From Cyanophora paradoxa CCMP329 (taxonomy: Eukaryota; Plantae; Glaucophyta), in assembly GCA_004431415.1 (NCBI GenBank), contig QPMI01000435.1, forward strand, positions 1-64,000: a stretch of DNA of 64,000 bases, written 5' to 3'. Position 1 is the first letter of the stretch, and each line of letters opens with the position of its first letter. Of the stretch, positions 1 through 64,000 are shown one piece after another. The notes beneath the pieces are model-generated. The model made no database searches and had not been told where the DNA came from. It saw nothing but the letters and a program-made list of their open reading frames with translations. The position numbers and the translations under genes were made by a program.

Positions 1-75
1 ATTAAGCTCCTCCGCATACCATACCATGAAACTGATATTAAAGGTTGCATTGAGCGCTTCCTCTCATCGCTCTAA
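1..75 (+). CDS. C-terminus of a probable DUF559/PD-(D/E)XK-like endonuclease (partial)
   Basis: Frame 1 reads IKLLRIPYHETDIKGCIERFLSSL*, matching the I.LLRIPY.E tail typical of viral DUF559-like nucleases. Confidence 0.5.
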   Translation: MKLLRIPYHETDIKGCIERFLSSL

Positions 76-120
76 TTACCACAGTCAGTCTTATTTTTCT
101 ATTGTTTTTATAGTGAAAGA

Positions 121-987
121 ATGCAAAAAGGGACGACGCCCATGGATCTCGAAGAATGGAACCCGAAACAGAGGGTGAAACTTCCCGCACGATTTCTCCT
201 ATTGGCGAAAACCAATTGTGGTAAATCGGTTTTCTTAAAGTGGCTGATCAAAGAACTCGAAGATCAGATCTCGTATGTTCTGGTTTTCTGTCCTACGAGT
301 TTCAACGGTTTCTGGGGACAAATTACAGACGAAGTGCATGACACCTGGAAACCGGAATATGTAGAGTCGATCATAGAAGCCCGCAAAAAAGCCATCATCG
401 CGGGTAAGAAACCAAAGAATATTCTCATCGTACTCGACGATTGTTTGGAGTCCGGAACTATCGATCTTTCGCGCGATCATTTGCTAAATAAATTGATGGC
501 GCAAGGTCGTCATACGTTTTGTTCCGTGGCGCTAATATCGCAGAAACTAACAAAGCTTTCAACGATCATTCGCAGCAATGCGGAGTATATCATATTCCTC
601 AGCTGGTCAAACATGCGAGAGTTTGAAGCATATCACGAAGAGTTCGGGAACATGGATAAAGAGAGTTTCAAGCGCATGTTCCAAGAATTCTGTCATAGCT
701 ACCAAGCGATCATTCACGATAATACCGGGTATTCTGTGCGATGGTGGGTCGAAAAAGCCGATATGATCGATGACCATCCGTTTACTAAATTCCACAAGCG
801 GGCGGCTTTTGAAGAAAAGAAGCGCAAACAACAAGAAGAGCAAGCAACAAAACCGCCGCCTGTCAAAGATTCGACAACTGTATGCAAAACTTTATCCAAA
901 TTTGAGCGTGAGCTTGAAGGTATCCCCAAACTTTCCCAAATTTCGCCTAAGAAAAAGAAAATGTTAATCAAATGTAAGAGAAGATAA
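121..987 (+). CDS. A32/FtsK-HerA-like DNA packaging ATPase
   Basis: Walker A variant AKTNCGKS, Walker B IVLDD, GRH and SQ motifs; homologous to 28869 and 43344 genes. Confidence 0.9.
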   Translation: MQKGTTPMDLEEWNPKQRVKLPARFLLLAKTNCGKSVFLKWLIKELEDQISYVLVFCPTSFNGFWGQITDEVHDTWKPEYVESIIEARKKAIIAGKKPKNILIVLDDCLESGTIDLSRDHLLNKLMAQGRHTFCSVALISQKLTKLSTIIRSNAEYIIFLSWSNMREFEAYHEEFGNMDKESFKRMFQEFCHSYQAIIHDNTGYSVRWWVEKADMIDDHPFTKFHKRAAFEEKKRKQQEEQATKPPPVKDSTTVCKTLSKFERELEGIPKLSQISPKKKKMLIKCKRR

Positions 988-989
988 TC

Positions 990-1673
990 ATGGTCTACCG
1001 AAAGAAGCCTCAAACCCTACAAGCGGTCGCCTCTGGTAACCCAAATCGCGGACTTGAAGAGTCTGGATTAACGTCGGGTGGCGGTCTCGAAATGCCCGAA
1101 TATCTTATAGACACTTCGCCAGAAGAGGTCGCCAAGCAAGAGGCGATTATTGCGAGTGCCACCGCGGACAAGGGAAACCAAGATAGCGGTAAACGCCAAA
1201 TGGAGGATTTAGCTACTGTAAAACCACAGATTGGAGGCGGCTCCATCGATGAAGCAACCGACAAAGTACTAAAAGCGCAAGTTGTCGCAAGCCAGCACAA
1301 AACGCAAGACGTCCCAAAAGCCGCCGAAACTGAGCTTAAAAAGCGCGGATCCTATCAAAAACACACGGTTCCTGTCGACGTTGTCATGAGCTTTGAAGAG
1401 AAAGTGCGAGACCTTGAAATGAAAGTGTCAAACTACGAGAAATGGATGCAAGATTATAACGAACGCAAGAAATTAAAGGGGCTCGTGAAGAAAGAGATCT
1501 CCAAACTCGGATTAAAGCAAAAAGTCGACGTAGAGGAGATTAAAAAGGAGGAAAAAACAGATGCACAAGCCGTAACTCGTCAGCAATCGGTTGCCCCGCA
1601 ATATGCACATATAGTGCCGACAGCACCAGCGAATTTCGCGGCAATGCTCGGTGGTAAACGCCATATCCGCTAA
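990..1673 (+). CDS. Conserved coiled-coil/disordered protein downstream of ATPase (possible core protein)
   Basis: KVRDLE coiled coil and GG.R.IR C-terminus shared with 29619 gene; coiled coil also in 44155 gene. Confidence 0.7.
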   Translation: MVYRKKPQTLQAVASGNPNRGLEESGLTSGGGLEMPEYLIDTSPEEVAKQEAIIASATADKGNQDSGKRQMEDLATVKPQIGGGSIDEATDKVLKAQVVASQHKTQDVPKAAETELKKRGSYQKHTVPVDVVMSFEEKVRDLEMKVSNYEKWMQDYNERKKLKGLVKKEISKLGLKQKVDVEEIKKEEKTDAQAVTRQQSVAPQYAHIVPTAPANFAAMLGGKRHIR

Positions 1674-1870
1674 TGGCTGTGAATATCCGCAAGGCAAAGC
1701 TGAACCCGCCCGTATTTAGAGCGGGTCTTTATGTGGACTCCCTTGCAATAGGGACAGGTCGGCTCGGTAAACAACATGATAAGGTCGACTAAATCATAAG
1801 GAAACACGAGCAAGTAACAGCCTCATTTCCTGTTACCATAGGATTATTTTATTGCGACTCTTTATAGAAG

Positions 1871-2266
1871 ATGAACTTTATCAGTCAGTGCATTGAAATG
1901 TTTCAGCTTCATGTAGTGTCTAATTGCCACAGCCCTTGCTGTGACACGACCGTAGAAATTGAAATATCGGATGGCGAAGACAATGGGGGTCGTCGCTTAT
2001 CTGTTATTTCGAACACTGACACGAACGCCCCGCCAAGATCGCGAAGGGGGTCGCCTGTGCCCGCGGCTATGAGTTCCAATATCGAATCCGCTCAGATAGA
2101 GGACGTAAACGTAGAGTATATTAGAAGGCGCTCATGTCCTGAGATATTGGGTGGGCATTTTCGCGCTGATTCCCCTTATCCGATGCTCACCCTCGATGGA
2201 ATGGCTTCGGGCAACGATGGAAATTACGAATACGTGGAGCCGCAACCTGTCTGGAACGATTATTAA
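1871..2266 (+). CDS. Small Cys-motif protein (SNCHSPCCDT), conserved in all three elements
   Basis: N-terminal ~35 aa align with 15747-16073 and 44917-45150. Confidence 0.75.
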   Translation: MNFISQCIEMFQLHVVSNCHSPCCDTTVEIEISDGEDNGGRRLSVISNTDTNAPPRSRRGSPVPAAMSSNIESAQIEDVNVEYIRRRSCPEILGGHFRADSPYPMLTLDGMASGNDGNYEYVEPQPVWNDY

Positions 2267-2283
2267 AGATCGATCCGAGGGCA

Positions 2284-2291
2284 AAAATTGA
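2284..2291 (+). promoter_or_regulatory. AAAATTGA motif (Mimiviridae-type early promoter consensus)
   Basis: Exact octamer ~78 bp upstream of ATG 2369; also at 37042, 37196, 48436 and 53083 (minus). Confidence 0.4.
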
Positions 2292-2347
2292 AGGTTTCGG
2301 TAAAAGGTATTTAAGGGCAAGAGAAATAATACAGAGTGACAAAAAAC

Positions 2348-2360
2348 TATTTTCTCCGGT
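2348..2360 (+). promoter_or_regulatory. Conserved TATTTTCTCCGGT upstream motif
   Basis: Same motif at 7810-7826 and 13565-13581; variants at 45315, 45730 and 35831 (minus), each shortly upstream of an ATG. Confidence 0.6.
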
Positions 2361-2368
2361 TATAGTAA

Positions 2369-2781
2369 ATGGCGAAACCCAAGATTTCAAACCAAGAGGC
2401 GATGGCGGCACAGCAGGAAAAGCGCAGACCCGGGCGACCGAAAAAGGTGATTTCAGAAGAGGAGAAGGCGGAGAGATTAAGACTAAACGCGAAAAAGACG
2501 CCGAGCGGCAGCGAAACAAGCATCAGAGACAGAAACAGGAGCGATTAGCCGCCGGAGAGGCTACTATATTCACACCGGAACAGCTACAAAAGATTGCAAT
2601 TCGTAAACAGCAGCGATACCAAGACGATGAAGAGTATCGGGAGAAAATCCGAGAGAAGGCACGTGAATACCAACGAAGGAAAAGAGCGGAACGCAAGCTG
2701 AACCCACCCGCTAAACCTCAGCCGCAAAAGCCCGCTGGGAGACCCCGAAAGCATGTCGTCGAGAACGCGAAAAATTCGTAG
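2369..2781 (+). CDS. Basic AT-hook DNA-binding protein (one frameshift; not in ORF track)
   Basis: MAKPK...RRPGRPKK...RYQDDEEYREK...AGRPRKH* after restoring one A in an A-run; homologous to 30558 and 45352 genes. Confidence 0.7.
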
Positions 2782-2785
2782 CGAA

Positions 2786-2803
2786 AAGTACCGCACGATG
2801 CAA
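2786..2803 (+). repeat. Target-site duplication (left) of LINE insertion
   Basis: AAGTACCGCACGATGCAA, identical at 7685-7702. Confidence 0.92.
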
Positions 2804-5800
2804 GATAAAATCTCTTGCATTAGCACACAACACAACTACAATGAGTTTCACATCGCCCAATAAATCTCTCCGACTAGATACTATCGAGGACCGTCGTATG
2901 CTGTGCTTTAGAAAGTACAAAATGAACGAAAGGTTTGAAGGTTTCGTGTCTAGATATCTAGCTAAGGAGGTTTCTAACTAATACTAATGATGTGGAAGCT
3001 AGCTGTATCGATTTCTAAACCAACCTAAACTCCCGGCTACGAGGTCCTATCTCTACAAAAGACTCCCAATCATGGTATGTCCGCCGCCAGCGCTGCCCAA
3101 GGGCCTCGCCGCGCCGTGTGCCAGGCTCCTCGCCAGCCCCAGTAGATTGGGCTACTGGCCGCCTCCTGCGTCGCCTCCGCCGCCTCCATTTGTTGGTGTT
3201 GCGTCCTCCGGCCCGCCCCAGACCGCAATCCCCAGTGTCTCCTCTAGCGCGGGCGCGCCCTCTGTGTGCCCACGCCCCAAGCATACCTGTTCGTATGGTC
3301 GTATACTTGCATGGCCGCTGAAGCCCGGACCCAGCCGTAGTCGTCTGGCGGGCAGCTCAGGTGTGAGAGGGCTAGGGTTTCCCGCCTTGGTGGCGGGACT
3401 CGAGGGCACCGCACTCCCTGCAGCGTTCCCGCTGCCGGGGCTCCGATCCGCGCGCTTCCTGCGAGCGTTTGCCAGCCGTATCGTCAGGCGGCGCGTCGGC
3501 CTCGCGCCCGCGCGCCTCAGTGCGCTTCGCCTTGGCGCGACGTTCTTTCATGACCTTCGTGATCCCGCACGCTTCTCCCACTCCGCGTACGCCTGGCATC
3601 TGGCGGCCCACGTTTTATGGGCCTGCTCGCCTATGGCCGTCGTCAGCTTGCGCACGACCTGGGCAGCTTTCTTGGCGTCCGTGACGGTCTCGCGATCAAT
3701 ATCGGTGAGGCTGCCGGGGGCAGCCCCGTAGCACGCACATCTGCGCCTGCCGTTCAGCTGCCGTGAGCGTCGGGTCGTTTACTCTCGTGACTTCAGGGAG
3801 CTGGAGAGCGCGTGTGGCACTGACCGCTTCTGCGCGCCTTCGAGGGCCTCGCTGACCGTCGCTGCGATGCGTGCTTCCGCAGCGGTGCGCGCCTCCGTCG
3901 CCACCGCGCTGGGGCAGGTGAGGACGTGCTCCAGCGTCTCCTCGGGCCCAGTCACAAGCTGGGGCCGCCGTCGCCATCGATTTCCCGTGTGCTGCAGAGC
4001 GCACAGAGTCCTGCCGGGTTCACTTCGCTGTAGAGCTCGGGCGCGTCTCGCTTGCGGACGAGGGCGTCGCCACCGTACCCAAAACGAGTTTCATGTGCGT
4101 ACCCCGGAAGCAGTTTGCTCTCTCGGCTCACTCCGACTCGGCGGGCCCCATAGCCATCTGATCGTATACTGCGCCGTGATCCACTGGCAGCCGTAGCCAC
4201 TCCCCGGCCTTGAGCTGGTTCGCCCACGCGAAGTGCGTGTGGTGCGCGTGAAGCACAGCGGCGTGCCGCGAGGGTCGCCTTCGACTCGCCTGACTATCCC
4301 GGTCGGTCCCTCGATCGTCAGCACTGCCGGCATGCTGAACTCGGGCGGCAGGAGATGTTCTCGTCCAGTTCTCCTGTTCCAGGTGCGCGCTTGATCGGCC
4401 GCTCTGTCGGCGGCGTCGTTTAGCTCGTGCATATCCTCGTCGCTGTGCGCCTTGACCTTGATAACCGCAGCGGCCGCTTGCCGATCCCGTCCATCACCAG
4501 GCGCGGAACTTGGACCACGCGTACAGCTCAGCGCTGCACGTGTTCCGGATGTAGTCTCGCATGTGCATATCGTGCACATTCAGCACGACTTATCGAACCA
4601 CGTGCAGACGTTCTGACTGTCCGTGTGCAGGCGCACCCCTGCGCCGCGAGCACGTCGGCGACGATCGCAGCTGGAGCTCAGCCTTGTTGTTCTCTTGAAG
4701 CCCGCGCAGCCTGCCAACGTACGTGCCTGCCCATTCCGGGTGGTTCGCCACGGTCCCGTCCGGGAACTCAGCCGGGCTCACGACGCCGAGGCCCGCGTGC
4801 GCCCCTTCCGTTTGACCCTTCTTCAGGCTCCCGTCCGTCCATATCCACTGCTCGAGTTTCCCGGGCGACGGCCGAGCTTCGCGAGTTCCGCCTCTTCGAT
4901 CTGCTCCCAATTTGCCAGCATGTGCTGCCAGTAAACGGTGAGGGTGACCCCTTCCTGCGCCGCCCGGGAGTCCCAGTGGCGCGGCGCTCCGCCCGCGTAG
5001 TAGAGTTCGCTCTGCTCTGCTGAATCTGACACAGGTTGTGCCTCGTCCCGCGGCTCGGCGCCCGGCGTCGCCGCCGCAGCCACTTCCAGCGCGGCCTGCA
5101 GCTCAGCCTCGGCCTCCGGGCTCAGCTGTTCGCGGAGGAAGCGCTCGTCACCATCCTGTACGGCTTTCACGCGGGCCTGGAGAAGCAGCGCCCTGCGTTT
5201 CTCGTCGTCTTGCGTGCGCAGGCCCGGGTCGTAGTACTCCAAGGTCGGTCGCAGGGCGACCTGCTTGCGCCCGCGCTTCGACTTCGTCTCCTGACCCGCC
5301 GCTACCGCGGCGTCTCCTCCGTCGGTTCGCCTTCCAAGGCGAGGAGGGTATCCTCCTCCTCCACCAGCCCTTCCCGTGCGTCCACGAGCCGTCGCACTGA
5401 CTCATTTCGGGCAGCGCGATGGAGCATTGCGCGTGCACCGGTCGTCATGGTGCCAGTACTGCTTCCCTGTCCCCTGCACCGCCGTGTACGTGCTCGTCCG
5501 CCCTCTATTTCGGGGTGCCGGCAGTGACCGTCGCACCGGCAGTAGAGTCCCTCTTTCTCCGCGTCGGGGTCCGCGCCCTTCGGCACCGGCACCCAGTGCT
5601 CCAGCAGGTACTCCGACGCTAATATGCTGCCCGTCTCGGATTTGAACGTAACGACTCGCCCACGTGGGGCTCGCAGATTCATCGTGCAGTTGCTCCGCCT
5701 CAAATACGGCTACGAACGCGTCCTTTGCCCACTTCACCTTCCGGGCCCGCCAGGGAGCGAGGCCATGGCTGACGCGCGCTCTCCTGCCCGCCGCATCGGG

Positions 5801-7684
5801 TGCCGCAGCTGCTTCCCATCAACCGCGAGCGCGTTCGCTACCTCACGCCACCACGCAGGCTCGCTCTTCTGCAGCGTCCCCTTGGGCGCGCCCATGTACA
5901 GGTCCTGCCAGGTTCGCAGGGTCTCGCCGTCCGCTGCCGTCACCGCGTCCATGGTCGTCACGCCCGCCCCGTACAGGGCAGGGGCCGCGACGCTGAAGAC
6001 GGATCTTGGGATGTGCATTGCCACGACGTAGCGCCGGTCGAGGCGCTCCGGGTCAGGCCAAGGCTCCGCCCCGGGCAAGGTGCGGAACGCCGCATAGCGC
6101 GCGTGATTCGACATCAGCCGGTACTTACGGCGCTGCATTTGCGGCATGATCGCCGCCAGGGAGTTCCCGCGGGCGAGTTCGCTGGAGATGGGCGCGTTTA
6201 GGAACTCGGTCGGGAGCAGAGGCACCCAAGCTTCTCCTGCAGTGCGCGCACCCGGTGCCGTACCCCCGAGCCAGCAGCGAGCCCTCGGGCGCGCAGAGCC
6301 GGATCTGAGCCTCTGTGATTTGCGCCTCCGCTTGCAGGTGGGCTGTTCGTTTGAGGCTGTACCCCCGTGGCTCCAGATTGCGTAATTCGTCGTCGAGGCG
6401 GCGAGGTTCCCGTGGTGCTTGACGACCCTCATCCAAATACGATCGAGTTCCTGGCACTGACTCTCGCTCAGGGTCATGAGCTTCAGGCCGTACGAGATGC
6501 GGGCCTGCACTACGGCCTCGACAAGGTAGCAGGCCTCGTTCGCGGTGAGCTTCTTGCGTTCTATCAGCGCGACTGCGCCCGCGCCTGATCGCAGATGTAC
6601 TGCCACTGACGATCCCAGTTCAGGTTTGCGCTCATGTATACCCCGAGGAGCTTGAAGTGCTCTTGGGGCTGGCGGACAAGTCCGACGGGGTACCGTTGAT
6701 CTTCGGCGGGGAGGGCTGCTTCTCCTTCTTCTTCGCGGCGGGGTGGGCCCAGGTTTGCTCTCAACTTCGCGACGTGCGTTGTTCCACGTGAAGATCGTCT
6801 TCTTCGCGTTGACCTCGATATCGTGCAGGCGGAAGAACTCGCCGGCCACGTCGGCCTGGGCCTGTAGCCCCGCATGCTTCCGCTCATCCACTTCGTGTCA
6901 TCGGCGTACGCCACGCCGCTGACGCGGGCCGGCCCTCGCGTTCCGCAGCATCGGTCTCCCTCGGGTTCCCATCACGTACGCCGTGCCCGGCTCCTCCCAG
7001 CTCTCGGGGTGGGCATAGTGCTCTATCGTCTTTGCCGTCTTCTTTCCGTGCTGGCGCTCGTGCTGATCCAGGCGCTCTTGCGCGCAGAGGAGGGCATCGT
7101 AGAAGATCAGCCAGTGCAGCGGCGACTCGACACCGCCCTGCGGCAGCCCGCACTCGAGCTCGAACTCGTCGGAGAGGCCGTGACCGGAGATTGCCCGCGC
7201 CTGCGGCGCCGGAATATGTTCCTGTGGAGCTCGATGTACCCCTCGGGTACGTTCAGCCTCCGCATCGAGAGCTCCATGCTCTCCCACGAGACGGAGTCGT
7301 ACGCTCGCCTGATATCCTGCAGCAGGATGTACAGGGCTTCTTGAACTCCTTCGCGTCCTCGAGGACTGCGTTAAAGACGTGGAGGGCGTCGTCCGTCGAG
7401 CAACCAGGTCTGAAGCCGTAGTTGGCTCCTTTCAGGAGCCCGTTCTGATGGATTGTCCGGGACAGGCGCGCGTTCAGGAGGCCAGTGGTCAGCTTCAAGG
7501 CCACCTCCTGCAGGGTGATCGGTCGCAGGTTATTTTCGATATCCCGTCCCACTCCCGGCTCTTAGTAATGCCGAGAATGTTGCCCTGACACACGGCATCC
7601 GGCAGGTCCCGGAGGCGGATCGCTTCAGCCACCAGCGAGAGCAGCAGCTTCCGGCCCCAGTGTACGGGCTCCTCTTCCGTGGCC
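2804..7684 (-). mobile_element. 5'-truncated non-LTR retrotransposon (LINE) ORF2: RT + RNase H + CCHC knuckle, many frameshifts
   Basis: Abrupt GC-rich block between 18-bp direct repeats; RT motifs LRPITLQEV, YGFRPG, YDSV, GLPQGGVESP, AYADD; RNase H WTDGS...NNKAEL...KVKAHS...NDAAD; CALC...ETLEHVLTC. Confidence 0.92.
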
Positions 7685-14776: not shown

Positions 14777-14984
14777 TAGTTTCGGCGTAATGTCGGCTGA
14801 CAGGGTGATAGTTTCGGCGTAATGTCGGCTGACAGGGTGATAGTTTCGGCGTAATGTCGGCTGACAGGGTGATAGTTTCGGCGTAATGTCGGCTGACAGG
14901 GTGATAGTTTCGGCGTAATGTCGGCTGACAGGGTGATAGTTTCGGCGTAATGTCGGCTGACAGGGTGATAGTTTCGGCGTAATG
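14777..14984 (+). repeat. 32-bp tandem repeat, 6.5 copies; continues at 36721 after element 2
   Basis: Unit TAGTTTCGGCGTAATGTCGGCTGACAGGGTGA. Confidence 0.95.
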
Positions 14985-16073: not shown

Positions 16074-16111
16074 CTATTAATGGAAAAATATAAAAAAACA
16101 AAGGAATGCGG

Positions 16112-16935: not shown

Positions 16936-16958
16936 TTTACATTAAAGTGATATATATT

Positions 16959-52210: not shown

Positions 52211-52308
52211 CTTTACCTTATCTCTCATATAATAAATGCAAGAGTCTGTGTGGAAGGAGAACACAATTCCAAACTACTTTGCAATTGAGCCCAATGATCC
52301 AGGATTAA

Positions 52309-54237: not shown

Positions 54238-55779
54238 TCATACACTTCGAATAAATGCACCTGTGACATCCACTCTCATAGTTGGGGTGTTGATGTATAC
54301 AAGTGGATAAATTCGAATATACCTTGTCCTCAGAGGGTAGCCAATATAGAAAACGTCTCTAATAGAGGTGGGATACCCAGAACTGTATGAGACATCACCA
54401 CTGTTGTGGGCATTATTAATAGTTTCACACATAAACACTCTGTTGACACCTTCATACTTGATAAATGACCAGGAAACACCATCTTGTGATGTTGCAACAT
54501 TGAAGGTCTTAATAAAAGCGTTTGTTACACCAGAACCATATGCAATTATAGATGCAACCTCAAATATGTATGGGAAGGTTACTTGGAGATACTCAGTGGG
54601 AACACTCCATATCCCATCAGGAGCAGATGCATTTGCTTCCCAACCTGTCAAGGAAGGTCTTGCTTTAAATGCCTCCCTTTCAATTTTTGATGATGAAGCA
54701 GTGAATGCACCATCTGATAGAAGATACCAGTTAGCATCAATGGGAGGTATGTTATTCAGAGTGGATGATATATAGAACCTTGCAGGGTTCTTGATTTCGT
54801 AATTTGCAACCAGTAAATCACAGAGTCTATCAATCATCACAGTGTTTGCTGCTATATATATTTCGGTTGCATCTATCATATCTGGTATTTTAGAGGTATC
54901 ATCCAAAGAGTTTACTATGGTCTTTGGAAGTGGAACAGAGAGTCTATAATATCTTGCATATCCTTGATCATCATTGTATGGGAGAAACTCTTGCATCTTT
55001 TCCAGAGCAGACAGTTCACTTGCAGCCATCAACATATTGATTAATGGACTTCCAGAGGTCGAAGCAATCCAAGAGAGGATGCCCCAGCTGTTCACATCTT
55101 CATAAGAGTAACCCACATTTGGAGCATCTGTTTCATTGACTTCACCACAGGATATACTTATCACTATAATATCATCATCATCATCATAGATCTTCTTAGC
55201 ATGACTGTAACCACAGACACTGGGATTGTTGTTACCTGAGATTGCACCATCAATTAGAGACATCCCATCATAGTTCACAGGTGAGAAATATGTTGGAGCA
55301 GCAGAGGTGGATCTTGCAGCAATCTTGCTGGGGATGGATTTGTAGGAGTTATCATTGGTGATAAAAATGGGCTTCATACTCACAGTGTCAAAACTTGTGA
55401 TCACTACATCTTTGAGAGAGTCTTGAATGAGAGACTCACCAGTAACAGTGAGAATGGCTGTCTCCAATGGGGTCACATCATACTTGGTGTTGAAAAGTGC
55501 ATTATCAATAATATTTCTGGGATTTGCAAAGATTAAGGGGAGTTGATTGAGATAAGTGGAATGCAAATCGGTTGCAGTAAGTTTAGGTTCGTTTGGAAAT
55601 TCGGGATTTTTCACATTGAGACCAATCGCAATTATCCCACCAGTGGATGTTCCACTCACCAGATCAACAAGGTCAATTACTCTTTTTCCTGTTCGAGTTT
55701 CGATTTCTTTTAACAATCTCGTAATAATTATACCACGAGCTCCCCCACCTGATAATGAGAGAATTACACGAAGGGGCAT
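54238..55779 (-). CDS. Patatin-like phospholipase fused to F5/8 type C (discoidin) domain
   Basis: LSGGGARG, GTSTG, SAAPTYF, DGA; EYLQV.F...SQDG..W...TRYIRIYP...MRVDV.G. Confidence 0.9.
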   Translation of the reverse strand: MPLRVILSLSGGGARGIIITRLLKEIETRTGKRVIDLVDLVSGTSTGGIIAIGLNVKNPEFPNEPKLTATDLHSTYLNQLPLIFANPRNIIDNALFNTKYDVTPLETAILTVTGESLIQDSLKDVVITSFDTVSMKPIFITNDNSYKSIPSKIAARSTSAAPTYFSPVNYDGMSLIDGAISGNNNPSVCGYSHAKKIYDDDDDIIVISISCGEVNETDAPNVGYSYEDVNSWGILSWIASTSGSPLINMLMAASELSALEKMQEFLPYNDDQGYARYYRLSVPLPKTIVNSLDDTSKIPDMIDATEIYIAANTVMIDRLCDLLVANYEIKNPARFYISSTLNNIPPIDANWYLLSDGAFTASSSKIEREAFKARPSLTGWEANASAPDGIWSVPTEYLQVTFPYIFEVASIIAYGSGVTNAFIKTFNVATSQDGVSWSFIKYEGVNRVFMCETINNAHNSGDVSYSSGYPTSIRDVFYIGYPLRTRYIRIYPLVYINTPTMRVDVTGAFIRSV

Positions 55780-55828
55780 CTTTACTTAACTCAAATTTAA
55801 TAAATCTCTATAAGTAGAGTAAACAGGG

Positions 55829-58800
55829 ATGAGTTTCAATTACCCAGCAAACCTTCAAACCATTCCCTCATCAGGAAGAGGGAAGGCAGATAACAAACAT
55901 GTGAATTTCGATAACTTGACAGCCAGAGGGTCAATCTCAATTGATCACAGTGCAGATGAACCCTCAAAGACTCACCCAAGAGAGCATGCACTTTCAATAA
56001 ACGAAATGGATCCCGAAAAGGAGGATGTGAGTGTTGCTTTCAGCATGGGGAATGTGAAATCGAATCAAGTAGCCCAGATTAAAGCAACCAGGAGCAGACC
56101 AAGAAAACTGAAAACCAGTGGAACCCATCCAGATATTCCAACTCGATTCGATAGTGGTAGGTTAATATTCAATGTTCAAAATGAGAAGGGTGGGCATCAG
56201 AGTGGTTTGAGAATCTATAATGAAGGATCAAATGCAATTGCACAAATTCCCGAAATATTACAGATAGCCCCCCATGGAGAAACCAACAAAATCGAGTTCA
56301 CTAACAATGTTTATCCACGAGATATTGTGGCGAATTCGGCTTCTAATGCGCAATTCGGTTTCCAACTACCTGGTGATACAGCAAAGAATAAGGCGTCTAT
56401 CACTGTCAACAGTAGCCCCACTCAACCAGTAACAGTTCATTTACACCCAGACCTTGTCGAAATGGATAGGCACCTTTTACCTTTGGTGACAAACACCAAA
56501 GATCTTGGTATTAGAACCAGACAATGGCGAAATATCCATGGAAGCAATGTCTATGCAAATGGAGAGAAACTTGTAAGTGAGAAGACCATAAGAGAGATCT
56601 TTGAGTATTATGGACCTGTCCCAGTTCCCTTCCCACTACCATGGGATCCACCAGATTTAACACCCAAAAAGCAACCAGGAAGAGAATACACAGCAGATGA
56701 GACAGTTCCTTTTGGTCAACACATTGTGAGTTGGGAGCAGGTTCGAAATAAACCTATAATTGAACCAAGAAAGCAAATTGATGAGCAATATTTACCTCCT
56801 GAAATTGATATTTTGGAGCTTGACGAATACCAATTCGTTCCAGATGAGGAGGAATACCTACCTGATGGTTTCGACCCACAAGAGTATGAATATGATCAAT
56901 ATGATCCCAATGAGGAAGAGTATTTACCAGATGGTTTAGATCCACAAGAGTATGAATATGAGCAGAATTATGAACCCCATGAGGAATATTTAGCAGATGG
57001 TCTCGAACCACCAGTTGTTGATTATGAGCAACCATATGAACCCCATGAAGAATTATTACCAGATGGATTTCGCCCAGAGATTTGGGAGTTCTTCCCAGAT
57101 TGGGAGCAGATCAATAACAAACCAGCAAGATTTCCACCAGAGGATCACAACCATGACTGGGATGAGATATTAGGTAAACCAGAGAAATTCCCACCAGAGG
57201 ATCACAGGCATGACTGGGGTGATCTGGATGGGATACCAGATAAGTTTGCAGCAAGCAACCATGAACACACCTGGGATGAGATCAATGACCAACCAGAATT
57301 CGCAAAAGTAGAGCCTCTTGCTACTCTGGGAGTTTCTCTTTACCAGACTTGCAATGTCCCTGAAAGGATCTTTTTGAATCACCACTATGTTCATGTGGAA
57401 GGGACACTTGCAAATTCAGCTATGATAGGACCATTGCATATTAGAACATTACCAGGCTCTTATAATCCACCACCAGAACCAGGAGCAACCATACCAAATA
57501 TCTTTGTGTCAAGCTACATGGAGGTTGACATACCCACAGATACTTTTAGAGTTCCAACAGACCCAGCAACCTACCAAAATTACAATGCAGCTATACAGGT
57601 TCATGTTGCAGATGTGAGCAGTCTGGATGGATCAAGACCAATGATAGTTTTCAGTCGAGATAAATACTCCTACATTCCCATAGTGGGAACTGCAAATGAT
57701 AATTATGGAAGGGCAGAACTTGCATGGATAAAAACGAATTATGGTGGGGTTCTGGAAGCTAATCAAAGAATGGCTGCAAAAAATATTCACAACGAAAATA
57801 TATCGAGAGTGGTAACAGAAGATTATTTAGAAGATCAAGGATATATTGACGAAGGAGAACTAACGAATATTCTTTCTTTATTCGTGATTAAAAATGATAC
57901 AAACCTTACAGTCACAAGTAACATTTACACCAGTAACATTTCAGCAAGTAACATTTGGACAAGTAACCTATGGGCAAGTAATATATGGACAAGTAATATT
58001 TACGGAAGTAATTTAGAGGTTGACTACTTGACTGTGAATATTGAAGCAAACCTACCAAATCATCCTACTTCTAATGTTGTTTTGGATTGGATTGATAACC
58101 ACACACACACAAAAGATGAGATCACAGATTTTGCACATGATCATTTATGGGAGCATATAACAAATCCCCCCTCAACCTTCCCGCCCAGTTCACACACTCA
58201 TGACTACTCAGAGATCACAAACTCTAATCACAGACACATTTGGAGTGAAATAGATGAACAGCCAGTATTCGCACAATTGAATGCAATCGGAAACGTTTTT
58301 AATGGAGTCACACTTTACCAATCGATTAATACACCTGAAAGGCTATTTTTGAATGATCATTATGTTAGTCTCAATGGGACTTTTACAGGTCAAACAGGCA
58401 CTCCAATGGAGGGAACTCTTGCAGTAAGATTACCCAGGGATCCAATTGTAAATGGAGTTTATGATGGCGATTTCAATGTAGGAGTAAATGATACTTTCCC
58501 CAGTATTTATGTCACGAATTATCACCCAGGTGAAATAGGACAAGTAGCCAATTTCTCGGCAGCAATACAAGTAAATGTAACAGATCAAAGTGCATATGAT
58601 GGAGCAAGACCTAAAATAGTATTCACAAGGGAGAAAGTCGTTAACTATCTTCCTGTTGTGGGACAACCCACAGATGATCACGGAAAGTGTGAGATGGCGT
58701 GGATCAAAACGACAACAGGTGGCGCCTTAGAAGTCAATCAGAGAATGGCGGCGAAAAACTTACACAATACCACCCTTTCCGGTGTTGTTACAGATGATTA

Positions 58801-60736
58801 TTTAGAAAACAAAGATTATGTTACAAATACAGAATTACAATTAGCTGTTACAGATTTTGTTACAGATACCGATTTAACGGCGGCACTTGCTAATTATCTA
58901 CCTCTAACAGGTGGAACTGTAACAGGAACTGTGAATGCTACCACTTTACAAATTGGCGGAACCACAATACCAAAAGGTTACGATTTCGACCAATTAGATG
59001 TGGTTTCATCAGATAGAAGCGCAAATAATTGGAATTTGAATTGGGTCGCAAGAACAGGACAAACAGGATGTTACACAACACCACATAATGATGAAGATTG
59101 CAGTGGTTGTTGGATGAGGTGGACAGTTCCAGAAGGTATGAAATCGTTTTACATTCAGCATATGCCGTGGGCGAATTGTCGATATTATGATATCTACGGG
59201 CAAACAGCCAATAATTACCAGCATTTCTTAAAACGTATAAATGCATATCAGGGAATCCAGGCAGTTAATCAAGATGGGACACATAATACTGTTTTGTTTG
59301 CCTCAATCAATTGTGAGTTTTACACAAAGATATACATTCAAGGTCGAAAAGGTCGCATTCATCTAACGGGTGTTTTCGGTTGGAGTAGACAGAGAGCAAC
59401 AGATAATGAATTGGGCATGATCTCTTGGGATAATGTATATAGCAAACCATCATTTTACTCAGCCGCAGACCTCCCAGGAACAGCAACATGGACAGTAAAC
59501 AATTGGTTAAAATCAACTGATAATGTCCCACGATTTTGGTTTGGAAATGGTCAAACAACATATATTCGAGGTTATGAAAATGGTGATGGTGTATCTGTCG
59601 AATTTAGAAACTCAGCGGATGCAGCAATCTTAAAATCATATGGTAACGGTAACTTTTGGGTGAATAATACTATTACAGCATCCACTATTAATGCTACTAC
59701 CAAACTCCAAATAAACGGTAATGATGTCCCAAAGTTTCACACAGCAGATAAAACAGTAGGAGCAATTGAGTTTAATAGATGTTCTCAGGGTTGGAGCTAT
59801 CACTGGGGGACATCATGGGATCCATATTATAATTATGGTTCATATGTCTATAATGATCAATATGATGACCAAACTTCTACCGCTTGGATTGACTTCGATA
59901 TTCCCGATGGATACCACACAGGAACAGCATTTTTAACTTATTTACCTTGGCAAAGCTCACGACTTTTTGAAATTTGGGGAGTTAATAGACAAGGAAATGA
60001 AGTTTTTATTACATCAGTGAATAGTTATCAACCATACGCCACATCTCCTGATAATAACCATAGTGGTTTAAATAATGTTCCTATACATCTTGGTAATCGA
60101 TTTCTCACAATTCGAATTAGACCAAAGATTGGAAGAGTTCATATTATGGGTATAAGCTACATGAAAATATGGGTTGGACATAGTTATGGCGGTCACACCG
60201 GTTATATTCATTGGAATAATGTTTATAGTAAACCAAATATCTTAACAGGATCTGTGGGGACTTGGTTTAGTTCAAGTGATGGATACCATCGTATCCATTT
60301 CGGTAACCAAACTTCTACATATTTGAAAGGAGGGGGAGATATTCCCCTTGTATTCCGAAATGAACAAGATACTGATATTTGTTACATGTATCATGGAGGG
60401 TGGATGTGGATAGGAGGGTATTTAACACAAGGAAGTGACATAAGATACAAAACAGATATTAAAAAGATAACCGGCGCTCTTTCAGCAATCGAGAGATTAG
60501 AAGGAGTAAGTTTTAAACGAATTGGAAGCGAAAAAGACGGAACAAAATTAGGTTTAATTGCACAAGATGTTCAAAAGGTAATACCAGAGGTAGTTAATGT
60601 TAAAAAAGACGATGGCTACCTATCTCTTGAATACACAGGTTTAATTCCTGTTCTCATTGAAGCAGTGAAGGAGTTATCGCAGAAATGCAAAGATTTACAA
60701 AGTCAAATAGACCAAATTAAAAATGTCACAGTATAA
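55829..60736 (+). CDS. 1635-aa fibre protein with acidic and His-x-His repeats, duplicated domains and C-terminal peptidase S74-like intramolecular chaperone
   Basis: SDIRYKTDIK...GLIAQDVQKVIPEVV...YTGLIPVLIEAVKEL followed by a coiled coil. Confidence 0.88.
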   Translation: MSFNYPANLQTIPSSGRGKADNKHVNFDNLTARGSISIDHSADEPSKTHPREHALSINEMDPEKEDVSVAFSMGNVKSNQVAQIKATRSRPRKLKTSGTHPDIPTRFDSGRLIFNVQNEKGGHQSGLRIYNEGSNAIAQIPEILQIAPHGETNKIEFTNNVYPRDIVANSASNAQFGFQLPGDTAKNKASITVNSSPTQPVTVHLHPDLVEMDRHLLPLVTNTKDLGIRTRQWRNIHGSNVYANGEKLVSEKTIREIFEYYGPVPVPFPLPWDPPDLTPKKQPGREYTADETVPFGQHIVSWEQVRNKPIIEPRKQIDEQYLPPEIDILELDEYQFVPDEEEYLPDGFDPQEYEYDQYDPNEEEYLPDGLDPQEYEYEQNYEPHEEYLADGLEPPVVDYEQPYEPHEELLPDGFRPEIWEFFPDWEQINNKPARFPPEDHNHDWDEILGKPEKFPPEDHRHDWGDLDGIPDKFAASNHEHTWDEINDQPEFAKVEPLATLGVSLYQTCNVPERIFLNHHYVHVEGTLANSAMIGPLHIRTLPGSYNPPPEPGATIPNIFVSSYMEVDIPTDTFRVPTDPATYQNYNAAIQVHVADVSSLDGSRPMIVFSRDKYSYIPIVGTANDNYGRAELAWIKTNYGGVLEANQRMAAKNIHNENISRVVTEDYLEDQGYIDEGELTNILSLFVIKNDTNLTVTSNIYTSNISASNIWTSNLWASNIWTSNIYGSNLEVDYLTVNIEANLPNHPTSNVVLDWIDNHTHTKDEITDFAHDHLWEHITNPPSTFPPSSHTHDYSEITNSNHRHIWSEIDEQPVFAQLNAIGNVFNGVTLYQSINTPERLFLNDHYVSLNGTFTGQTGTPMEGTLAVRLPRDPIVNGVYDGDFNVGVNDTFPSIYVTNYHPGEIGQVANFSAAIQVNVTDQSAYDGARPKIVFTREKVVNYLPVVGQPTDDHGKCEMAWIKTTTGGALEVNQRMAAKNLHNTTLSGVVTDDYLENKDYVTNTELQLAVTDFVTDTDLTAALANYLPLTGGTVTGTVNATTLQIGGTTIPKGYDFDQLDVVSSDRSANNWNLNWVARTGQTGCYTTPHNDEDCSGCWMRWTVPEGMKSFYIQHMPWANCRYYDIYGQTANNYQHFLKRINAYQGIQAVNQDGTHNTVLFASINCEFYTKIYIQGRKGRIHLTGVFGWSRQRATDNELGMISWDNVYSKPSFYSAADLPGTATWTVNNWLKSTDNVPRFWFGNGQTTYIRGYENGDGVSVEFRNSADAAILKSYGNGNFWVNNTITASTINATTKLQINGNDVPKFHTADKTVGAIEFNRCSQGWSYHWGTSWDPYYNYGSYVYNDQYDDQTSTAWIDFDIPDGYHTGTAFLTYLPWQSSRLFEIWGVNRQGNEVFITSVNSYQPYATSPDNNHSGLNNVPIHLGNRFLTIRIRPKIGRVHIMGISYMKIWVGHSYGGHTGYIHWNNVYSKPNILTGSVGTWFSSSDGYHRIHFGNQTSTYLKGGGDIPLVFRNEQDTDICYMYHGGWMWIGGYLTQGSDIRYKTDIKKITGALSAIERLEGVSFKRIGSEKDGTKLGLIAQDVQKVIPEVVNVKKDDGYLSLEYTGLIPVLIEAVKELSQKCKDLQSQIDQIKNVTV

Positions 60737-60739
60737 TAA

Positions 60740-61048
60740 ATGGCGACCTATCCACTCGGTGGAACTCCTTCTACTTCTTCTGAGCCTGTCGCTCTTGCAT
60801 TCGATACTATCAAACTTGTAGCCGCACTACAAACTGTCGAAAAAACGATACAGCAAACCAACAAACTGTCACCGGTTGTTCATGAATATAAAAACCTTTT
60901 GGTTAATGTCCTTGCGCAATCGGCTTATGGTGACCCAGTAACAAAATATGGTGAATGTGATTCTAACCTCAAAGCGATGACATCCAACATCCAATGTCTA
61001 ACAACCGCTTACCAATCTCTTGGATCCAATCTAATTGCTTTGGCTTGA
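60740..61048 (+). CDS. Hypothetical helical protein
   Basis: 102-aa ORF packed between fibre genes. Confidence 0.6.
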   Translation: MATYPLGGTPSTSSEPVALAFDTIKLVAALQTVEKTIQQTNKLSPVVHEYKNLLVNVLAQSAYGDPVTKYGECDSNLKAMTSNIQCLTTAYQSLGSNLIALA

Positions 61049-61087
61049 ATGGTGTTTATTTTTCTTTATTTCTTAGTAAAAGAAGCA

Positions 61088-61942
61088 ATGGGTGAATATA
61101 ATCGAGTTCAACTTCCAATATATTCCCTTGGATCCCCTGCTATGCACTTTCGCCAGCATGAAGTTAATGATGAGGTTCGTGGTTTAGAATCAACAGAGAG
61201 ACCCAATTCCAATGGTAACTCCTTTGATAAGAATTCGATTATTCGAGTTAAAGAACTGAGAGCAGACAAGAATTCTGGTGTGGTTAAAACAACTCGACTC
61301 CTTGTCTCAAATGCGAATTTCTTCCAACCTACTAATGGAGGTCCTGATGCTTACAGTGTTGATCTGAAAGCCCTTGATTTCGATAAGAATTCTGCTGCTG
61401 TTACTGTGAGATCAGGAGGAGCATTTATTGGGGGTGGCTGTCGAATTTCAGGTCAACTTTCATCCTCAATTTCGTATAATGATGTCCCAGATACTCTTGA
61501 ACAAAATGTAGAGAATCCCCAACGAATACGTTTCTATACACCAGTTGCACAGCAACCTTTTCTACATTTCTATGTTGCTTCCTCTGTCACTCTTGAAAAT
61601 TCGGAATTGGTTATTATAACAGGAACTGATCGAGTAAGAAGAAATATTCCGCTTCCCACAGCAATGCTATCTATGTGCAGAGCAAACAACAATCAAACAG
61701 GTCATAATTACCTATTCTTTGTTCAAGCATCAAACCATTTCGGTCGAGGATATTGTGTTTATAACAATTTGACATTTACCTATGATTTGTTTGTAACTGA
61801 GGTTGGAGTTTACAATACTATGATTATGGGACTGAGGACAGATATAGCAGCTGTTTCGGCACTTCGAGGGGTAAACGTTGCAGATATCTTCACAACAGGG
61901 TTTTACCAGGAACCAGATGTGATTGATGACCCAACCCCATAA
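61088..61942 (+). CDS. Fibre/spike-family protein B
   Basis: About 97% identical to 16959-17813. Confidence 0.75.
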   Translation: MGEYNRVQLPIYSLGSPAMHFRQHEVNDEVRGLESTERPNSNGNSFDKNSIIRVKELRADKNSGVVKTTRLLVSNANFFQPTNGGPDAYSVDLKALDFDKNSAAVTVRSGGAFIGGGCRISGQLSSSISYNDVPDTLEQNVENPQRIRFYTPVAQQPFLHFYVASSVTLENSELVIITGTDRVRRNIPLPTAMLSMCRANNNQTGHNYLFFVQASNHFGRGYCVYNNLTFTYDLFVTEVGVYNTMIMGLRTDIAAVSALRGVNVADIFTTGFYQEPDVIDDPTP

Positions 61943-61965
61943 ATTATATATCACTTTAATGTAAA

Positions 61966-62795
61966 ATGGCTGCCCCAATACCAGAACGAATTATTACACC
62001 CCAACTATCATTAGCAGCACCTGCGAATCACGTTTTGCAGCATGCTACCTTTGATGATGTAGAAGGTCTCCAATCCACAGAAGTGCAACCTACCATGAAT
62101 ACATTTGGTTCCACCCACAAACTGAGATTGCAGGAACTCAGGTGTGATAAAAATAATGGTATAGTTAAGACAACGAAACTCCTTGTCACAAATGCAAACT
62201 TTTCTGCCCACTATGGAGACCCAGACAGTTATGGTGATCCTCTTTCTACTTATTCTTTTGAATCTCGGTCGGGAGCTATTAACTGCAAAACGGGGGAGCA
62301 TATATTGGTGATGGTCTTCGGATTGGTGGAGCTGTTGGTGCGCCTCTTTTCGTAAATGATCAACCCAATCCCATTGATCCCAACACCAGAATTCGCACCT
62401 ATGTCCCCAGTATGAATGCACCATATATTATCAAGATCTTCCCAATTGTTGTGAATGAGCAGACATCAGTAGTTGATTCTCTTGTTGAGATTGGTGACCA
62501 CTACAAGGTGGTTGTCGATATCCCACCAGATGTTTATGCTGTCTGTCAAGTAGAGGGTGGAACCCCAAATATTGCAGTTGTGATCACTCCATATGACAAT
62601 TTCGGAATCGCTTATCATGGTGTGAATTTCGGTCTTGAAGATTACCAGTTCTTGGTGAGAGCCACCAGATTTGGTATCTACAAATGCATTCTCTATGCTG
62701 AGAGAACCGATGCTATTGCAAAACAGAATACATATGCAGAATATTACGGCACAAATCGCTACTTCCCCATTTTCGGGCAGGATACTGCTCCATAG
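61966..62795 (+). CDS. Fibre/spike-family protein A (frameshift near 62290)
   Basis: Near-identical to 16112-16935. Confidence 0.72.
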
Positions 62796-62822
62796 AAATC
62801 TCAGGTATATATAGAGAGAGGG

Positions 62823-63095
62823 ATGGATGATAAAACAAAGAAATTCATAGAGTCTGCAATGATGGTTCATGGTGATGCTAAATTCGATTACAGTGAGACA
62901 GTCTATAAGAAAGCACAAGAGAAGGTCTCTGTTAGATGCCTCAAATGCAACAAGATCCTCCAAACCTACCCATTTAATCATGTAAGGGGAAGTGGATGCA
63001 GAGAGTGCAACAAGAAATCCTCTCATGCTTACAGAAAAAAGACTACATCAGGAATTGTGATAGATGATAAACCAGTAGTATTATATTTTGATTAG
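62823..63095 (+). CDS. DUF723/CapR-like zinc-ribbon protein
   Basis: FIE.A..VHG..FDYS...Y.....V...C..C......NH.RG.GC..C. Confidence 0.7.
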   Translation: MDDKTKKFIESAMMVHGDAKFDYSETVYKKAQEKVSVRCLKCNKILQTYPFNHVRGSGCRECNKKSSHAYRKKTTSGIVIDDKPVVLYFD

Positions 63096-63280
63096 ATCTT
63101 TGAGAGAGAAATGAGGATCTTTCCCCATTTTCCCTTTGTGATTATGCATGTATCAAAGCAGTTTGGACAGGTCTTGTGGTAGTGCAGCAGAATGATATCC
63201 ACCAACTCATATGGTAGCACTCTTGCTAAGATGGTTCGCATTCTACCAATCGCGTTTTTTAATTTTTCTAAATTATTCAT
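63092..63280 (-). CDS. Small protein with F-box-like motif and CxxC
   Basis: LPYELVDIIL...CPNC; fills the gap between neighbouring genes. Confidence 0.35.
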   Translation of the reverse strand: MNNLEKLKNAIGRMRTILARVLPYELVDIILLHYHKTCPNCFDTCIITKGKWGKILISLSKI

Positions 63281-63282
63281 AA

Positions 63283-63684
63283 ATGAATACTCATCGAGGC
63301 TTCCATGTGATGCTGGATTACAAATTCAGAACCCAATTAGCAGTAGGAATGGAGGACTTGGAGACAACAACCAGGTGGTTAATGCAGTTCTTGCAAACTA
63401 TTATTCAAGAGCAAGGTATTCGAGTAGTTCACAAGCATTGCGAGATTTTCGATGGTGGTATTTCTCCTCCTGGTTTTGCAATGGTTCTTCTGCTGGATGA
63501 GAGCCATTGCACTGCTCATTGTTACTCAAATGAAGGTATGTTGGCGATTGATATATTCAGTTGTGGATTAGAAGCAGAGAGGAAAACCACGAGAGTATCT
63601 CATGAGATAGATGAGAGAATAACAGGTGTGTTTTCAGGGTTGGAGAAATCGGAGAAACATAGAGTATTGCGATTTCCGAGTTAG
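63283..63684 (+). CDS. speD: S-adenosylmethionine decarboxylase proenzyme (prokaryotic SpeD-like), intact
   Basis: GFHVMLD, LLLDESHCTAHCY (E-S self-cleavage site), AIDIFSCG. Confidence 0.9.
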   Translation: MNTHRGFHVMLDYKFRTQLAVGMEDLETTTRWLMQFLQTIIQEQGIRVVHKHCEIFDGGISPPGFAMVLLLDESHCTAHCYSNEGMLAIDIFSCGLEAERKTTRVSHEIDERITGVFSGLEKSEKHRVLRFPS

Positions 63685-64000
63685 TTGACACTGAGAAATT
63701 CAGAATTTCAGATGGTCTTACTGAAAATGGTCAGATAATCGGGTGTGACACCTATTTAATTGACTGTGACGCCTCTTTAATTGACTGTGACGCCTGTGAC
63801 GCCTGTGACGCCTACTTTCAAACTTTTTAAAATTTTCAAAAATGACAGACTTCTTAAAACAGCCGTCACAGCCGTCACAGGCGTCACACCCAATTAAAAA
63901 TGGAATCTCTTTCTCTTACTGAGATATTCAAAAATATATTCTTGTCTTACTGAAATCCGTCTTGTGACACCTCTGACACCTACAAAACACTATCCATTAA
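63589..64000 (-). repeat. Element 3 right TIR (partial)
   Basis: Reverse complement of 39173-39584. Confidence 0.93.

What the first reader, a model, noticed from the sequence alone, without database searches (positions are those of the whole stretch)
1..64000. Nested cluster of three related Polinton-like viruses plus a LINE
Seen: three elements share ATPase, coiled-coil, Cys-motif, AT-hook and integrase genes, with almost no host DNA between them. Element 2 has clean TIRs and a 6-bp TSD inside a repeat that appears to belong to element 1, and a LINE sits inside element 1. Inference: this is an integration hotspot or storage locus in which PLVs target one another, comparable to endogenous virophage clusters in protists.
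Basis: partly seen in the sequence, partly recalled or inferred. Interest (0 to 1): 0.85.

Follow-up and report, generated by a model that had tools for sequence, protein, structure and literature searches.

The report
Nested endogenous viruses in glaucophyte alga
In the genome of what is probably the alga Cyanophora paradoxa, two virus-like elements and a retrotransposon sit inside what is likely one older virus-like element; the pile-up is real, but it is a known pattern and chance in a virus-crowded genome is likely enough to explain it.

Summary
The anatomy is real. Element 2 (14985-36720) has 764/768-nt inverted ends and a 6-nt duplication that splits a 32-nt array. The LINE (2804-7684) has an 18-nt duplication, and a LINE-free form appears in 3 of 4 runs. 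One addition: element 3 begins at 38000 with a 95-nt hairpin, and multicopy contigs of its flank run on with other letters there in 4 of 4 runs, so it too is an insertion into repeated DNA. The capsid protein folds as a double jelly-roll.

The claim that these viruses target one another is not shown. Published counts give 366 capsid genes in the likely host genome; random insertion then yields a doubly nested 20-kb element in 32-98% of simulations. Nesting of such viruses, with LINEs nearby, is already reported in Halocafeteria. No listed contig bridges element 2's ends, and element 1's capsid gene and termini lie outside the window. This scan noted a 95-nt hairpin end before, on other DNA of this genome. 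Verdict: real, known kind, modest interest.

The parts
1..2803 (+). Element 1, left part seen: A32-type ATPase 121-987, coiled-coil 990-1673, Cys-motif 1871-2266, AT-hook gene 2402-2782 (frame-broken). Its left end and capsid gene are outside the window.
   Evidence: multicopy in 4 of 4 runs
2786..2803 (.). 18-nt target-site duplication of the LINE, left copy (right copy 7685-7702)
   Evidence: LINE-free joint 2790>7690 in 3 of 4 runs, with one extra letter
2804..7684 (-). 5'-truncated non-LTR retrotransposon (RT, RNase H, CCHC-like tail), 64% GC, no poly(A) tail; many frame breaks in the window
   Evidence: the 13 LINE contigs listed with long matches differ by 0-4 substitutions (12 of 13; one has 25) but up to 11 gaps
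7849..12165 (+). Element 1 replicase, one gene of about 1,400 aa broken into four or five frames: PolB-like motifs (inferred), SF1 helicase, HNH-like tail
   Evidence: 16 longer homologues of 921-1486 aa align in order over 8580-12159; motifs; helicase and endonuclease hits; no profile support for PolB
12174..13556 (+). Element 1 rve integrase, open frame of 460 aa
   Evidence: PF00665 E 1.2e-13
14073..14324 (-). Element 1 S-adenosylmethionine decarboxylase-like fragment
   Evidence: PF02675 E 5e-4; 50% identical to element 3's
14777..14984 (.). 32-nt tandem array, 6.5 perfect copies; resumes at 36721-36800. Target of element 2.
   Evidence: low depth suggests the array is specific to few copies
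14985..36720 (.). Element 2, complete, 21,736 nt, with TSD GTAATG (14979-14984, 36721-36726)
14985..15748 (.). Element 2 left TIR (right TIR 35953-36720)
   Evidence: 99.5%, 4 one-base gaps; contigs end at 36720 in 3 of 4 runs and at 36722 in the fourth
16324..25013 (.). Element 2 attachment and entry block: two paralogous fibre-like genes, two C1q genes, H-lectin, long fibre (all minus strand), patatin (plus strand)
25399..27320 (.). Element 2 presumed penton genes (25399-26336 minus, split; 26319-27320 plus); identity inferred from position only
   Evidence: paralogues in element 3; no database hit
27372..28760 (+). Element 2 double jelly-roll major capsid protein
   Evidence: Foldseek E 1.8e-18 and VIA Z 28.7 to PBCV-1 capsid; 64% to P0001, listed as an MCP in PMC10120064 Table S2
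28869..35804 (.). Element 2 ATPase, coiled-coil and AT-hook genes (plus), integrase 30834-31763 and pPolB about 31765-35804 with two frame breaks (minus)
36727..37999 (.). Continuation of the host element (likely element 1): multicopy pieces around a low-copy 657-nt cassette (37030-37686); ends in a cut C-x2-C-type reading frame (37894-37999, minus)
   Evidence: contigs 36812-36945, 36993-37847, 37863-37999; no family hit for the fragment
38000..38094 (.). 95-nt imperfect palindrome at the left end of element 3
   Evidence: 78 of 95 self-complementary, -32.9 and -34.3 kcal/mol; flank contigs diverge after 37999 in 4 of 4 runs
38000..39584 (.). Element 3 left TIR, inferred 1,585 nt; only 39173-39584 can be matched (412 of 412) to 63589-64000 before the window ends
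   Evidence: depth about twice the interior
39596..48137 (.). Element 3 core: presumed pentons, MCP 41908-43281, ATPase 43344-44126, coiled-coil, Cys-motif, AT-hook, D5-type primase-helicase 45774-48137
48215..48348 (.). Internal copy of a 134-nt TIR module (three 9-nt repeats on each side of an AT-rich core); likely origin
   Evidence: 89-90% to the TIR copies; both of its flanks appear as loose ends in read contigs
48740..52806 (.). Element 3 broken pPolB-integrase cassette: polB stops at motif B (51304); 51305-52308, with the integrase 5' half, is inverted; integrase 3' half 52309-52806
   Evidence: not checked in reads
54238..63684 (.). Element 3 patatin-discoidin (minus), 1,635-aa fibre with S74 chaperone, two fibre-like genes, zinc-finger or endonuclease fragment, AdoMet decarboxylase
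63589..64000 (.). Inner 412 nt of element 3's right TIR; runs off the window

Best explanation
An older Polinton-like virus (element 1) likely received three separate insertions, a second virus (element 2), a third virus (element 3) and a LINE, which most likely landed without specific targeting and persisted because viral DNA is abundant and dispensable in this genome. Shown: element 2 carries an rve-type integrase gene and is flanked by the 6-nt duplication such enzymes leave; the LINE is 5'-truncated with an 18-nt duplication; a LINE-free form exists; element 3's flank is multicopy and continues otherwise in other copies. Inferred: element 2 was pasted by its own integrase; the LINE came by target-primed reverse transcription; element 3 was pasted by an rve integrase, its own before the cassette broke or a relative's in trans; all three inserts are young, in unknown order; the pieces on both sides of element 2 belong to one element-1 copy. 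Element 2 would replicate by protein priming (pPolB); element 3 would use its D5 primase-helicase, repeat module and terminal hairpin.
For: TIRs and TSDs. Empty LINE site in X1, X3, X18. Flank contigs 37863-37999 at 8.5-10 times the depth of the local low-copy contig, with 11-18 unmatched letters beyond 37999, in 4 of 4 runs. The window's low-copy stretch 36993-37831/37847 is one contig with 0-1 differences in 4 of 4 runs. Families are multicopy: E1 about 12-34, E3 about 9-18, E2 about 3, LINE about 7-12 in units of that contig's depth (rough, depth is no copy number). E2 TIR contigs stop at the tip, as expected if flanks differ between copies. Null model: a doubly nested 20-kb element in 32%, 72% and 98% of 400 simulations when all, half or a quarter of host DNA tolerates insertion. 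No sequence-specific integration was found for EMALEs (PMC8547959, passage).
Against: The two viral inserts lie only 1,273 nt apart. For 20-kb targets the null gives that somewhere in the genome in 6%, 17% and 41% of simulations, and for the 11.4 kb of element 1 actually seen in 2%, 7% and 26%, so a bias is not excluded. The 366 count is of capsid hits, not of whole elements, and assumes the host species. No listed contig bridges either end of element 2. Element 3's TSD and element 1's ends and capsid gene are unseen. The 37687-37999 flank is not proven to be element 1 rather than a fourth repeat.
Confidence: 0.7

Rival explanations
1. Active targeting: these integrases prefer resident viral DNA, or the non-coding variable region of element-1 copies, through chromatin state, low GC or a tethering protein.
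For: Two viral inserts 1,273 nt apart, a spacing that the null reaches in 2-45% of simulations across all 9 settings. The Halocafeteria preprint calls viral sequences hotspots, with 5 PLVs and 9 virophages nested among 77 complete elements. Ngaro type 1 is 91% inside EMALEs.
Against: One locus only. The two targets share no sequence (GC-rich array against a reading frame). Element 3 cuts a reading frame, so it is not confined to spacers. No chromodomain was reported on any integrase. Random insertion yields double nesting often.
Confidence: 0.2
2. Chimeric assembly of similar repeats: the order of blocks in the window is partly an artefact.
For: The window has many one-base gaps against read contigs, the families are highly repeated, and no listed contig bridges element 2's ends. 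Element 3's polB-integrase inversion was not checked.
Against: Both halves of one low-copy 32-nt array meet element 2 in register with a 6-nt duplication 21.7 kb apart, and the LINE has an 18-nt duplication; a mis-join would hardly create these. Low-copy contigs match the spacer in 4 of 4 runs.
Confidence: 0.06
3. The LINE is cargo: it inserted once and was multiplied inside most element-1 copies.
For: In run X1, LINE depth (1472) plus LINE-free joint (528) about equals element-1 depth (2044); X18 is similar (350 + 160 against 600); LINE depth is fairly flat along its length.
Against: In X3 the sum does not fit (779 + 161 against 1537), and X4 lists no joint. The window's element 1 differs 4-6% from the main contigs while the LINE differs by about 1% or less. 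Gene model P0018 runs further 5' than 7684 and P0019 is joined to an unrelated helicase tail, which points to dispersed copies.
Confidence: 0.12

Closest known systems
Nested PLVs and virophages of Halocafeteria seosinensis (bioRxiv 10.64898/2026.07.28.741278; passages and section 8)
   Same: Viruses inside viruses with TIRs and TSDs, 60-91 kb clusters, LINEs nearby, terminal palindromes linked to non-pPolB replication genes.
   Different: Here all capsids seen are one PLV-like lineage, not virophages; the host is likely a glaucophyte; the LINE is inside the virus with a TSD; the palindrome is 95 nt, not 52.
Cyanophora paradoxa endogenous viral elements of Bellas et al. 2023 (PMC10120064; passages and supplement rows) and Bulzu et al. 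2025 (PMC12220804; passages)
   Same: P0001, 64% identical to element 2's capsid, is a listed MCP; another listed MCP closely resembles element 3's by eye; patatin-discoidin, H-lectin and phage-type fibres are reported for glaucophyte PLVs.
   Different: The passages and rows seen do not describe this locus, its nesting or its ends; the element tables on Zenodo were not visible.
EMALEs with Ngaro retrotransposons in Cafeteria burkhardae (PMC8547959; passages)
   Same: rve-integrating endogenous viruses carrying GC-richer retrotransposons, often in spacers.
   Different: EMALEs are mavirus-type virophages with a protease; Ngaro uses a tyrosine recombinase, while this insert is a non-LTR element.
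Multi-replicase and tandem polisuviruses (bioRxiv 10.64898/2026.10.13.758929; section 13)
   Same: Element 3 has both an AEP-SF3 (D5-type) gene and a pPolB-integrase cassette set off by internal repeats; tandem integration is proposed there as a source of mosaicism, with an example whose identifier prefix is that of the C. paradoxa set.
   Different: Here the pPolB-integrase cassette is the broken one, and nesting rather than tandem order is documented by TSDs.

Membership tests
Polinton-like viruses (endogenous) | Double jelly-roll major capsid protein | tested here: met
   Element 2: model pLDDT 62, Foldseek E 1.8e-18, VIA Z 28.7 (rmsd 3.0, 338 aligned) to PBCV-1 capsid; element 3 is 57% identical. 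Element 1's gene is not in the window.
Polinton-like viruses (endogenous) | A32-type packaging ATPase | tested here: met
   PF04665 in 3 of 3 elements, E 1.7e-10, 1.5e-8, 3.3e-11
Polinton-like viruses (endogenous) | Penton (minor capsid) protein | tested here: inconclusive
   Candidates beside the MCP in elements 2 and 3 (36% identical) have no Pfam, PHROG or PDB sequence hit; not folded
Polinton-like viruses (endogenous) | Terminal inverted repeats, 14-40 kb length (range from PMC12220804 abstract) | tested here: met
   Element 2: 21.7 kb, 764/768-nt TIRs. Element 3: at least 26.0 kb, 412 of 412 matched. Element 1: not testable
Polinton-like viruses (endogenous) | Integrase with matching TSD (rve, 6 nt) | tested here: met
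   Element 2: 6-nt TSD; its integrase has no Pfam hit but is 32% identical to element 1's rve protein. Element 3's TSD is off the window.
Polintons/Mavericks (Polintoviricetes) | pPolB together with rve integrase | tested here: met
   PF03175 in elements 2 (E 7e-4, below cut-off) and 3 (E 3e-11) next to integrase genes
Polintons/Mavericks (Polintoviricetes) | 5'-AG...CT-3' termini (recalled, no call) | tested here: not met
   Element 2 begins with a run of A, element 3 with AC
Polintons/Mavericks (Polintoviricetes) | Cysteine maturation protease | tested here: inconclusive
   No protease family among the 49 proteins scanned; several small frames remain unnamed
Virophages (Lavidaviridae, EMALE-like) | Virophage-type capsid protein | tested here: not met
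   Z 28.7 to PBCV-1 against 16.1 to Sputnik and 14.9 to mavirus; C. paradoxa's 366 hits fall in two clusters outside the virophage columns as far as the row can be read
Non-LTR retrotransposons (LINE) | LINE-type RT, 5' truncation, variable-length TSD | tested here: met
   RVT_1 and RNase H in near-identical gene model P0018; 18-nt TSD; begins inside the RT region
Non-LTR retrotransposons (LINE) | Endonuclease (APE or REL) and 3' poly(A) or repeat tail | tested here: inconclusive
   No endonuclease domain in this truncated copy or in 5 of 5 relatives scanned; no poly(A) at 2804; clade not assigned

The most novel reading that the evidence does not exclude
Element-1 copies act as landing pads: related viruses integrate preferentially in their short variable non-coding region, and the resulting nests let a hairpin-ended, primase-helicase virus with a broken integrase (element 3) be moved by a neighbour's integrase and swap fibre modules with a protein-primed virus (element 2).
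Probability: 0.15. Interest if true: 0.65.

Novelty: new member of a known kind. Interest (0 to 1): 0.3.

Why it matters
It extends a known pattern, viruses nested in viruses, to what is likely a glaucophyte, and gives a clean test case: three inserts with defined junctions in about 11 kb of one older element. If a genome-wide count showed real targeting, it would explain how protists carry hundreds of these viruses at low cost and where their mosaic genomes are shuffled. On present evidence it adds an example, not a mechanism.

Tried and rejected
No whole genome is held, so the contig could not be extended and copies could not be mapped. The capsid had no Pfam, PHROG or PDB sequence hit; a first model from 3 sequences was useless (pLDDT 38). 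No related locus was found in viral contigs (0 of 174 pattern matches confirmed) or metagenome contigs (0 of 542). No RNA holder listed. Profile comparison did not link element 1's replicase to the pPolB of elements 2 and 3 or to solved polymerases; PolB rests on three motifs read by eye. The cut reading frame at 37894-37999 hit no family. No similarity was found between the two viral target regions or between element 1's spacers and element 3's. The missing 3' part of element 3's polB is not elsewhere in the window. The TSD 6-mers are not in the two held supplements of PMC12220804, which need not hold the full element table. Sequence look-ups in this scan's notes gave nothing. The idea that the LINE rides in most element-1 copies was considered and weakened (rival 3). 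The first guess that element 3 starts at 39173 was dropped.
Full report
What was checked. The window was scanned for reading frames, repeats and composition, annotated against Pfam and PHROGs, and two stretches (1-20000 and 36450-40300) were compared with contigs of 4 of the 20 DNA runs that hold part of it. No whole genome was available. The host is likely Cyanophora paradoxa: this scan's notes on the same genome say so (unchecked AI notes), and the only close capsid homologue, P0001, is a C. paradoxa entry in a published table.

Element 2 is complete. It spans 14985-36720 (21,736 nt). Its arms match over 768 columns with no substitution and four one-base gaps in C runs. The hexamer GTAATG lies on both sides, and the 32-nt array that ends at 14984 resumes in register after 36726. 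It encodes a capsid protein, an A32 ATPase, two presumed pentons, an integrase, a pPolB with two frame breaks, patatin, C1q, H-lectin and fibre genes. The capsid had no sequence hit in Pfam, PHROGs or PDB. A model from 8 sequences (pLDDT 62) matched PBCV-1 capsid at Foldseek E 1.8e-18 and Z 28.7, well above Sputnik (16.1) and mavirus (14.9). Contigs of the right arm stop at 36720 in three runs and at 36722 in the fourth, as expected where flanks differ between copies. No listed contig bridges either junction, and the tables were cut.

The LINE is real. It runs 2804-7684 on the minus strand at 64% GC, between two copies of an 18-nt sequence found nowhere else in the window. A near-identical gene model carries RT and RNase H domains and extends further 5'. 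A joint that skips 4,899 nt, with one extra letter, is seen in X1, X3 and X18 but is not listed for X4. The window's copy differs from most listed contigs by few substitutions but many one-base gaps, so it is young and its frame breaks may be assembly errors. Depth sums first suggested that most element-1 copies carry it; this fits X1 and X18 but not X3, and other gene models point to dispersed copies.

Element 3 starts at 38000. The window shows only 412 nt of its right arm, identical to 39173-39584. Read contigs extend the picture: depth over 38374-38985 is about twice that of the interior, 38000-38094 is a 95-nt palindrome, and contigs covering 37863-37999 at 8.5-10 times the local low-copy depth go on with 11-18 unmatched letters after 37999 in 4 of 4 runs. 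The minus strand there reads as the end of a cut C-x2-C-type frame (no family hit). So element 3 is an insertion into multicopy DNA, with an inferred 1,585-nt arm, a predicted right end near 65,170 and a predicted duplication GCAGTG. Element 3 has an intact D5-type primase-helicase, a repeat module that looks like an origin, and a pPolB-integrase cassette broken by an inversion with deletion, which was not checked in reads.

Element 1 is seen only in part: 11,358 nt once the inserts are removed, 79% coding. It has the ATPase, coiled-coil, Cys-motif and AT-hook genes in the same order as element 3, an open rve integrase, and one large replicase gene broken into several frames. Sixteen longer homologues align in order across it. 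Helicase and endonuclease parts have database support; the PolB part rests on three motifs read by eye, and profile tests failed. Its capsid gene and ends are outside the window, so its status as a capsid-bearing virus is inferred. The spacer 36727-37999 is tied to the array by low-copy contigs (36812-36945 in the 3 runs that list it, 36993-37831/37847 in 4 of 4) and mixes multicopy pieces with a 657-nt low-copy cassette. At 40% GC it does not look like the GC-rich LINE, but a fourth repeat is not excluded.

Shared genes. ATPase, coiled-coil and Cys-motif pairs and two of three integrase pairs beat all 200 shuffles; the E2/E3 integrase pair was reached by 2, and the E2/E3 AT-hook pair by 84. 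The three are distinct families (ATPases 38-39% identical), each multicopy. Elements 2 and 3 share part of the fibre block far more closely than their cores, which suggests module exchange.

Is it targeting? PMC10120064 Table S4 lists 366 capsid hits in 99.9 Mb for C. paradoxa. I simulated 366 sequential random insertions, 400 times for each of 9 settings. With 20-kb elements, 14-44 receive one insert and 0.4-3.7 receive two; at least one doubly nested element arises in 32-98% of runs. With 11.4-kb elements that falls to 9-74%. Two inserts within 1,273 nt arise in 2-45% across settings. One locus therefore cannot show targeting, though the close spacing keeps it open. The model treats capsid hits as elements and guesses the tolerated share of host DNA.

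What is known. Nested PLVs and virophages, LINEs nearby and terminal palindromes are described in Halocafeteria (bioRxiv 10.64898/2026.07.28.741278; passages and section 8). Retrotransposons inside endogenous virophages are described in Cafeteria (PMC8547959; passages) and inside cryptophyte PLVs, with glaucophyte PLVs carrying patatin-discoidin (PMC12220804; passages). Tandem and two-replicase elements are in bioRxiv 10.64898/2026.10.13.758929 (passages and section 13). Eight searches listed no paper on this locus or on a statistical test of PLV-into-PLV targeting in this alga; the library lacks most subscription papers, preprint supplements were not read, and the Zenodo element tables were not visible and may list these elements.

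Verdict. It is a new member of a known kind. Interest 0.3.

Noticed in passing
window 16112-17842 against 61059-62795; 22108-22662 against 56693-57247: Elements 2 and 3 share fibre-block DNA at 84-87% (one protein 275 of 284 identical; four-fold sites differ 44 of 95) while their capsids are 57% identical (68 of 98 differ): likely a module exchange later than the split of the cores.
   Followed up: partly
window 38972-39119, 39263-39409, 48215-48348, 63764-63897: A 134-nt module with three 9-nt repeats pointing inward on each side of an AT-rich core lies twice in the left TIR, once in the visible right TIR and once just behind the D5 primase-helicase gene. It looks like an iteron origin (likeness to phage P4 and SV40 origins is recalled).
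   Followed up: partly
window 51305-52308: Inversion with loss of about 200 codons of polB breaks both polB and the integrase of element 3, although its TIRs are identical; not checked in reads.
   Followed up: partly
window 38000-38094: The minus-strand fold of the terminal palindrome has tandem G-A internal loops and a GAA cap, as in this scan's note e1-10595593 on other DNA.
   Followed up: partly
window 53211-53760: An 11-nt array sharing AGTTTCGG with element 1's 32-nt array, then short palindromic repeats and a 213-nt patch of 78% GC inside element 3; origin unexplained.
   Followed up: no
window 2341-2372, 7807-7838, 13562-13593: A conserved 26-32-nt motif lies upstream of three element-1 genes; likely a promoter element.
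   Followed up: no
window 12150 and 2277: One low-depth contig in run X18 joins the end of the replicase gene to the region before the AT-hook gene, a different gene order in another copy.
   Followed up: no
window 2790/7690: The LINE-free form listed in reads carries one extra letter within the target sequence; whether this variant avoids insertion is untested.
   Followed up: no
whole window: Many frame breaks coincide with one-base gaps against read contigs, mostly in C or G runs, so some broken genes may be assembly errors.
   Followed up: partly
window 14073-14324 and 63283-63684: Elements 1 and 3 both carry an S-adenosylmethionine decarboxylase-like gene; in element 3 its 3' end lies inside the TIR.
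   Followed up: no
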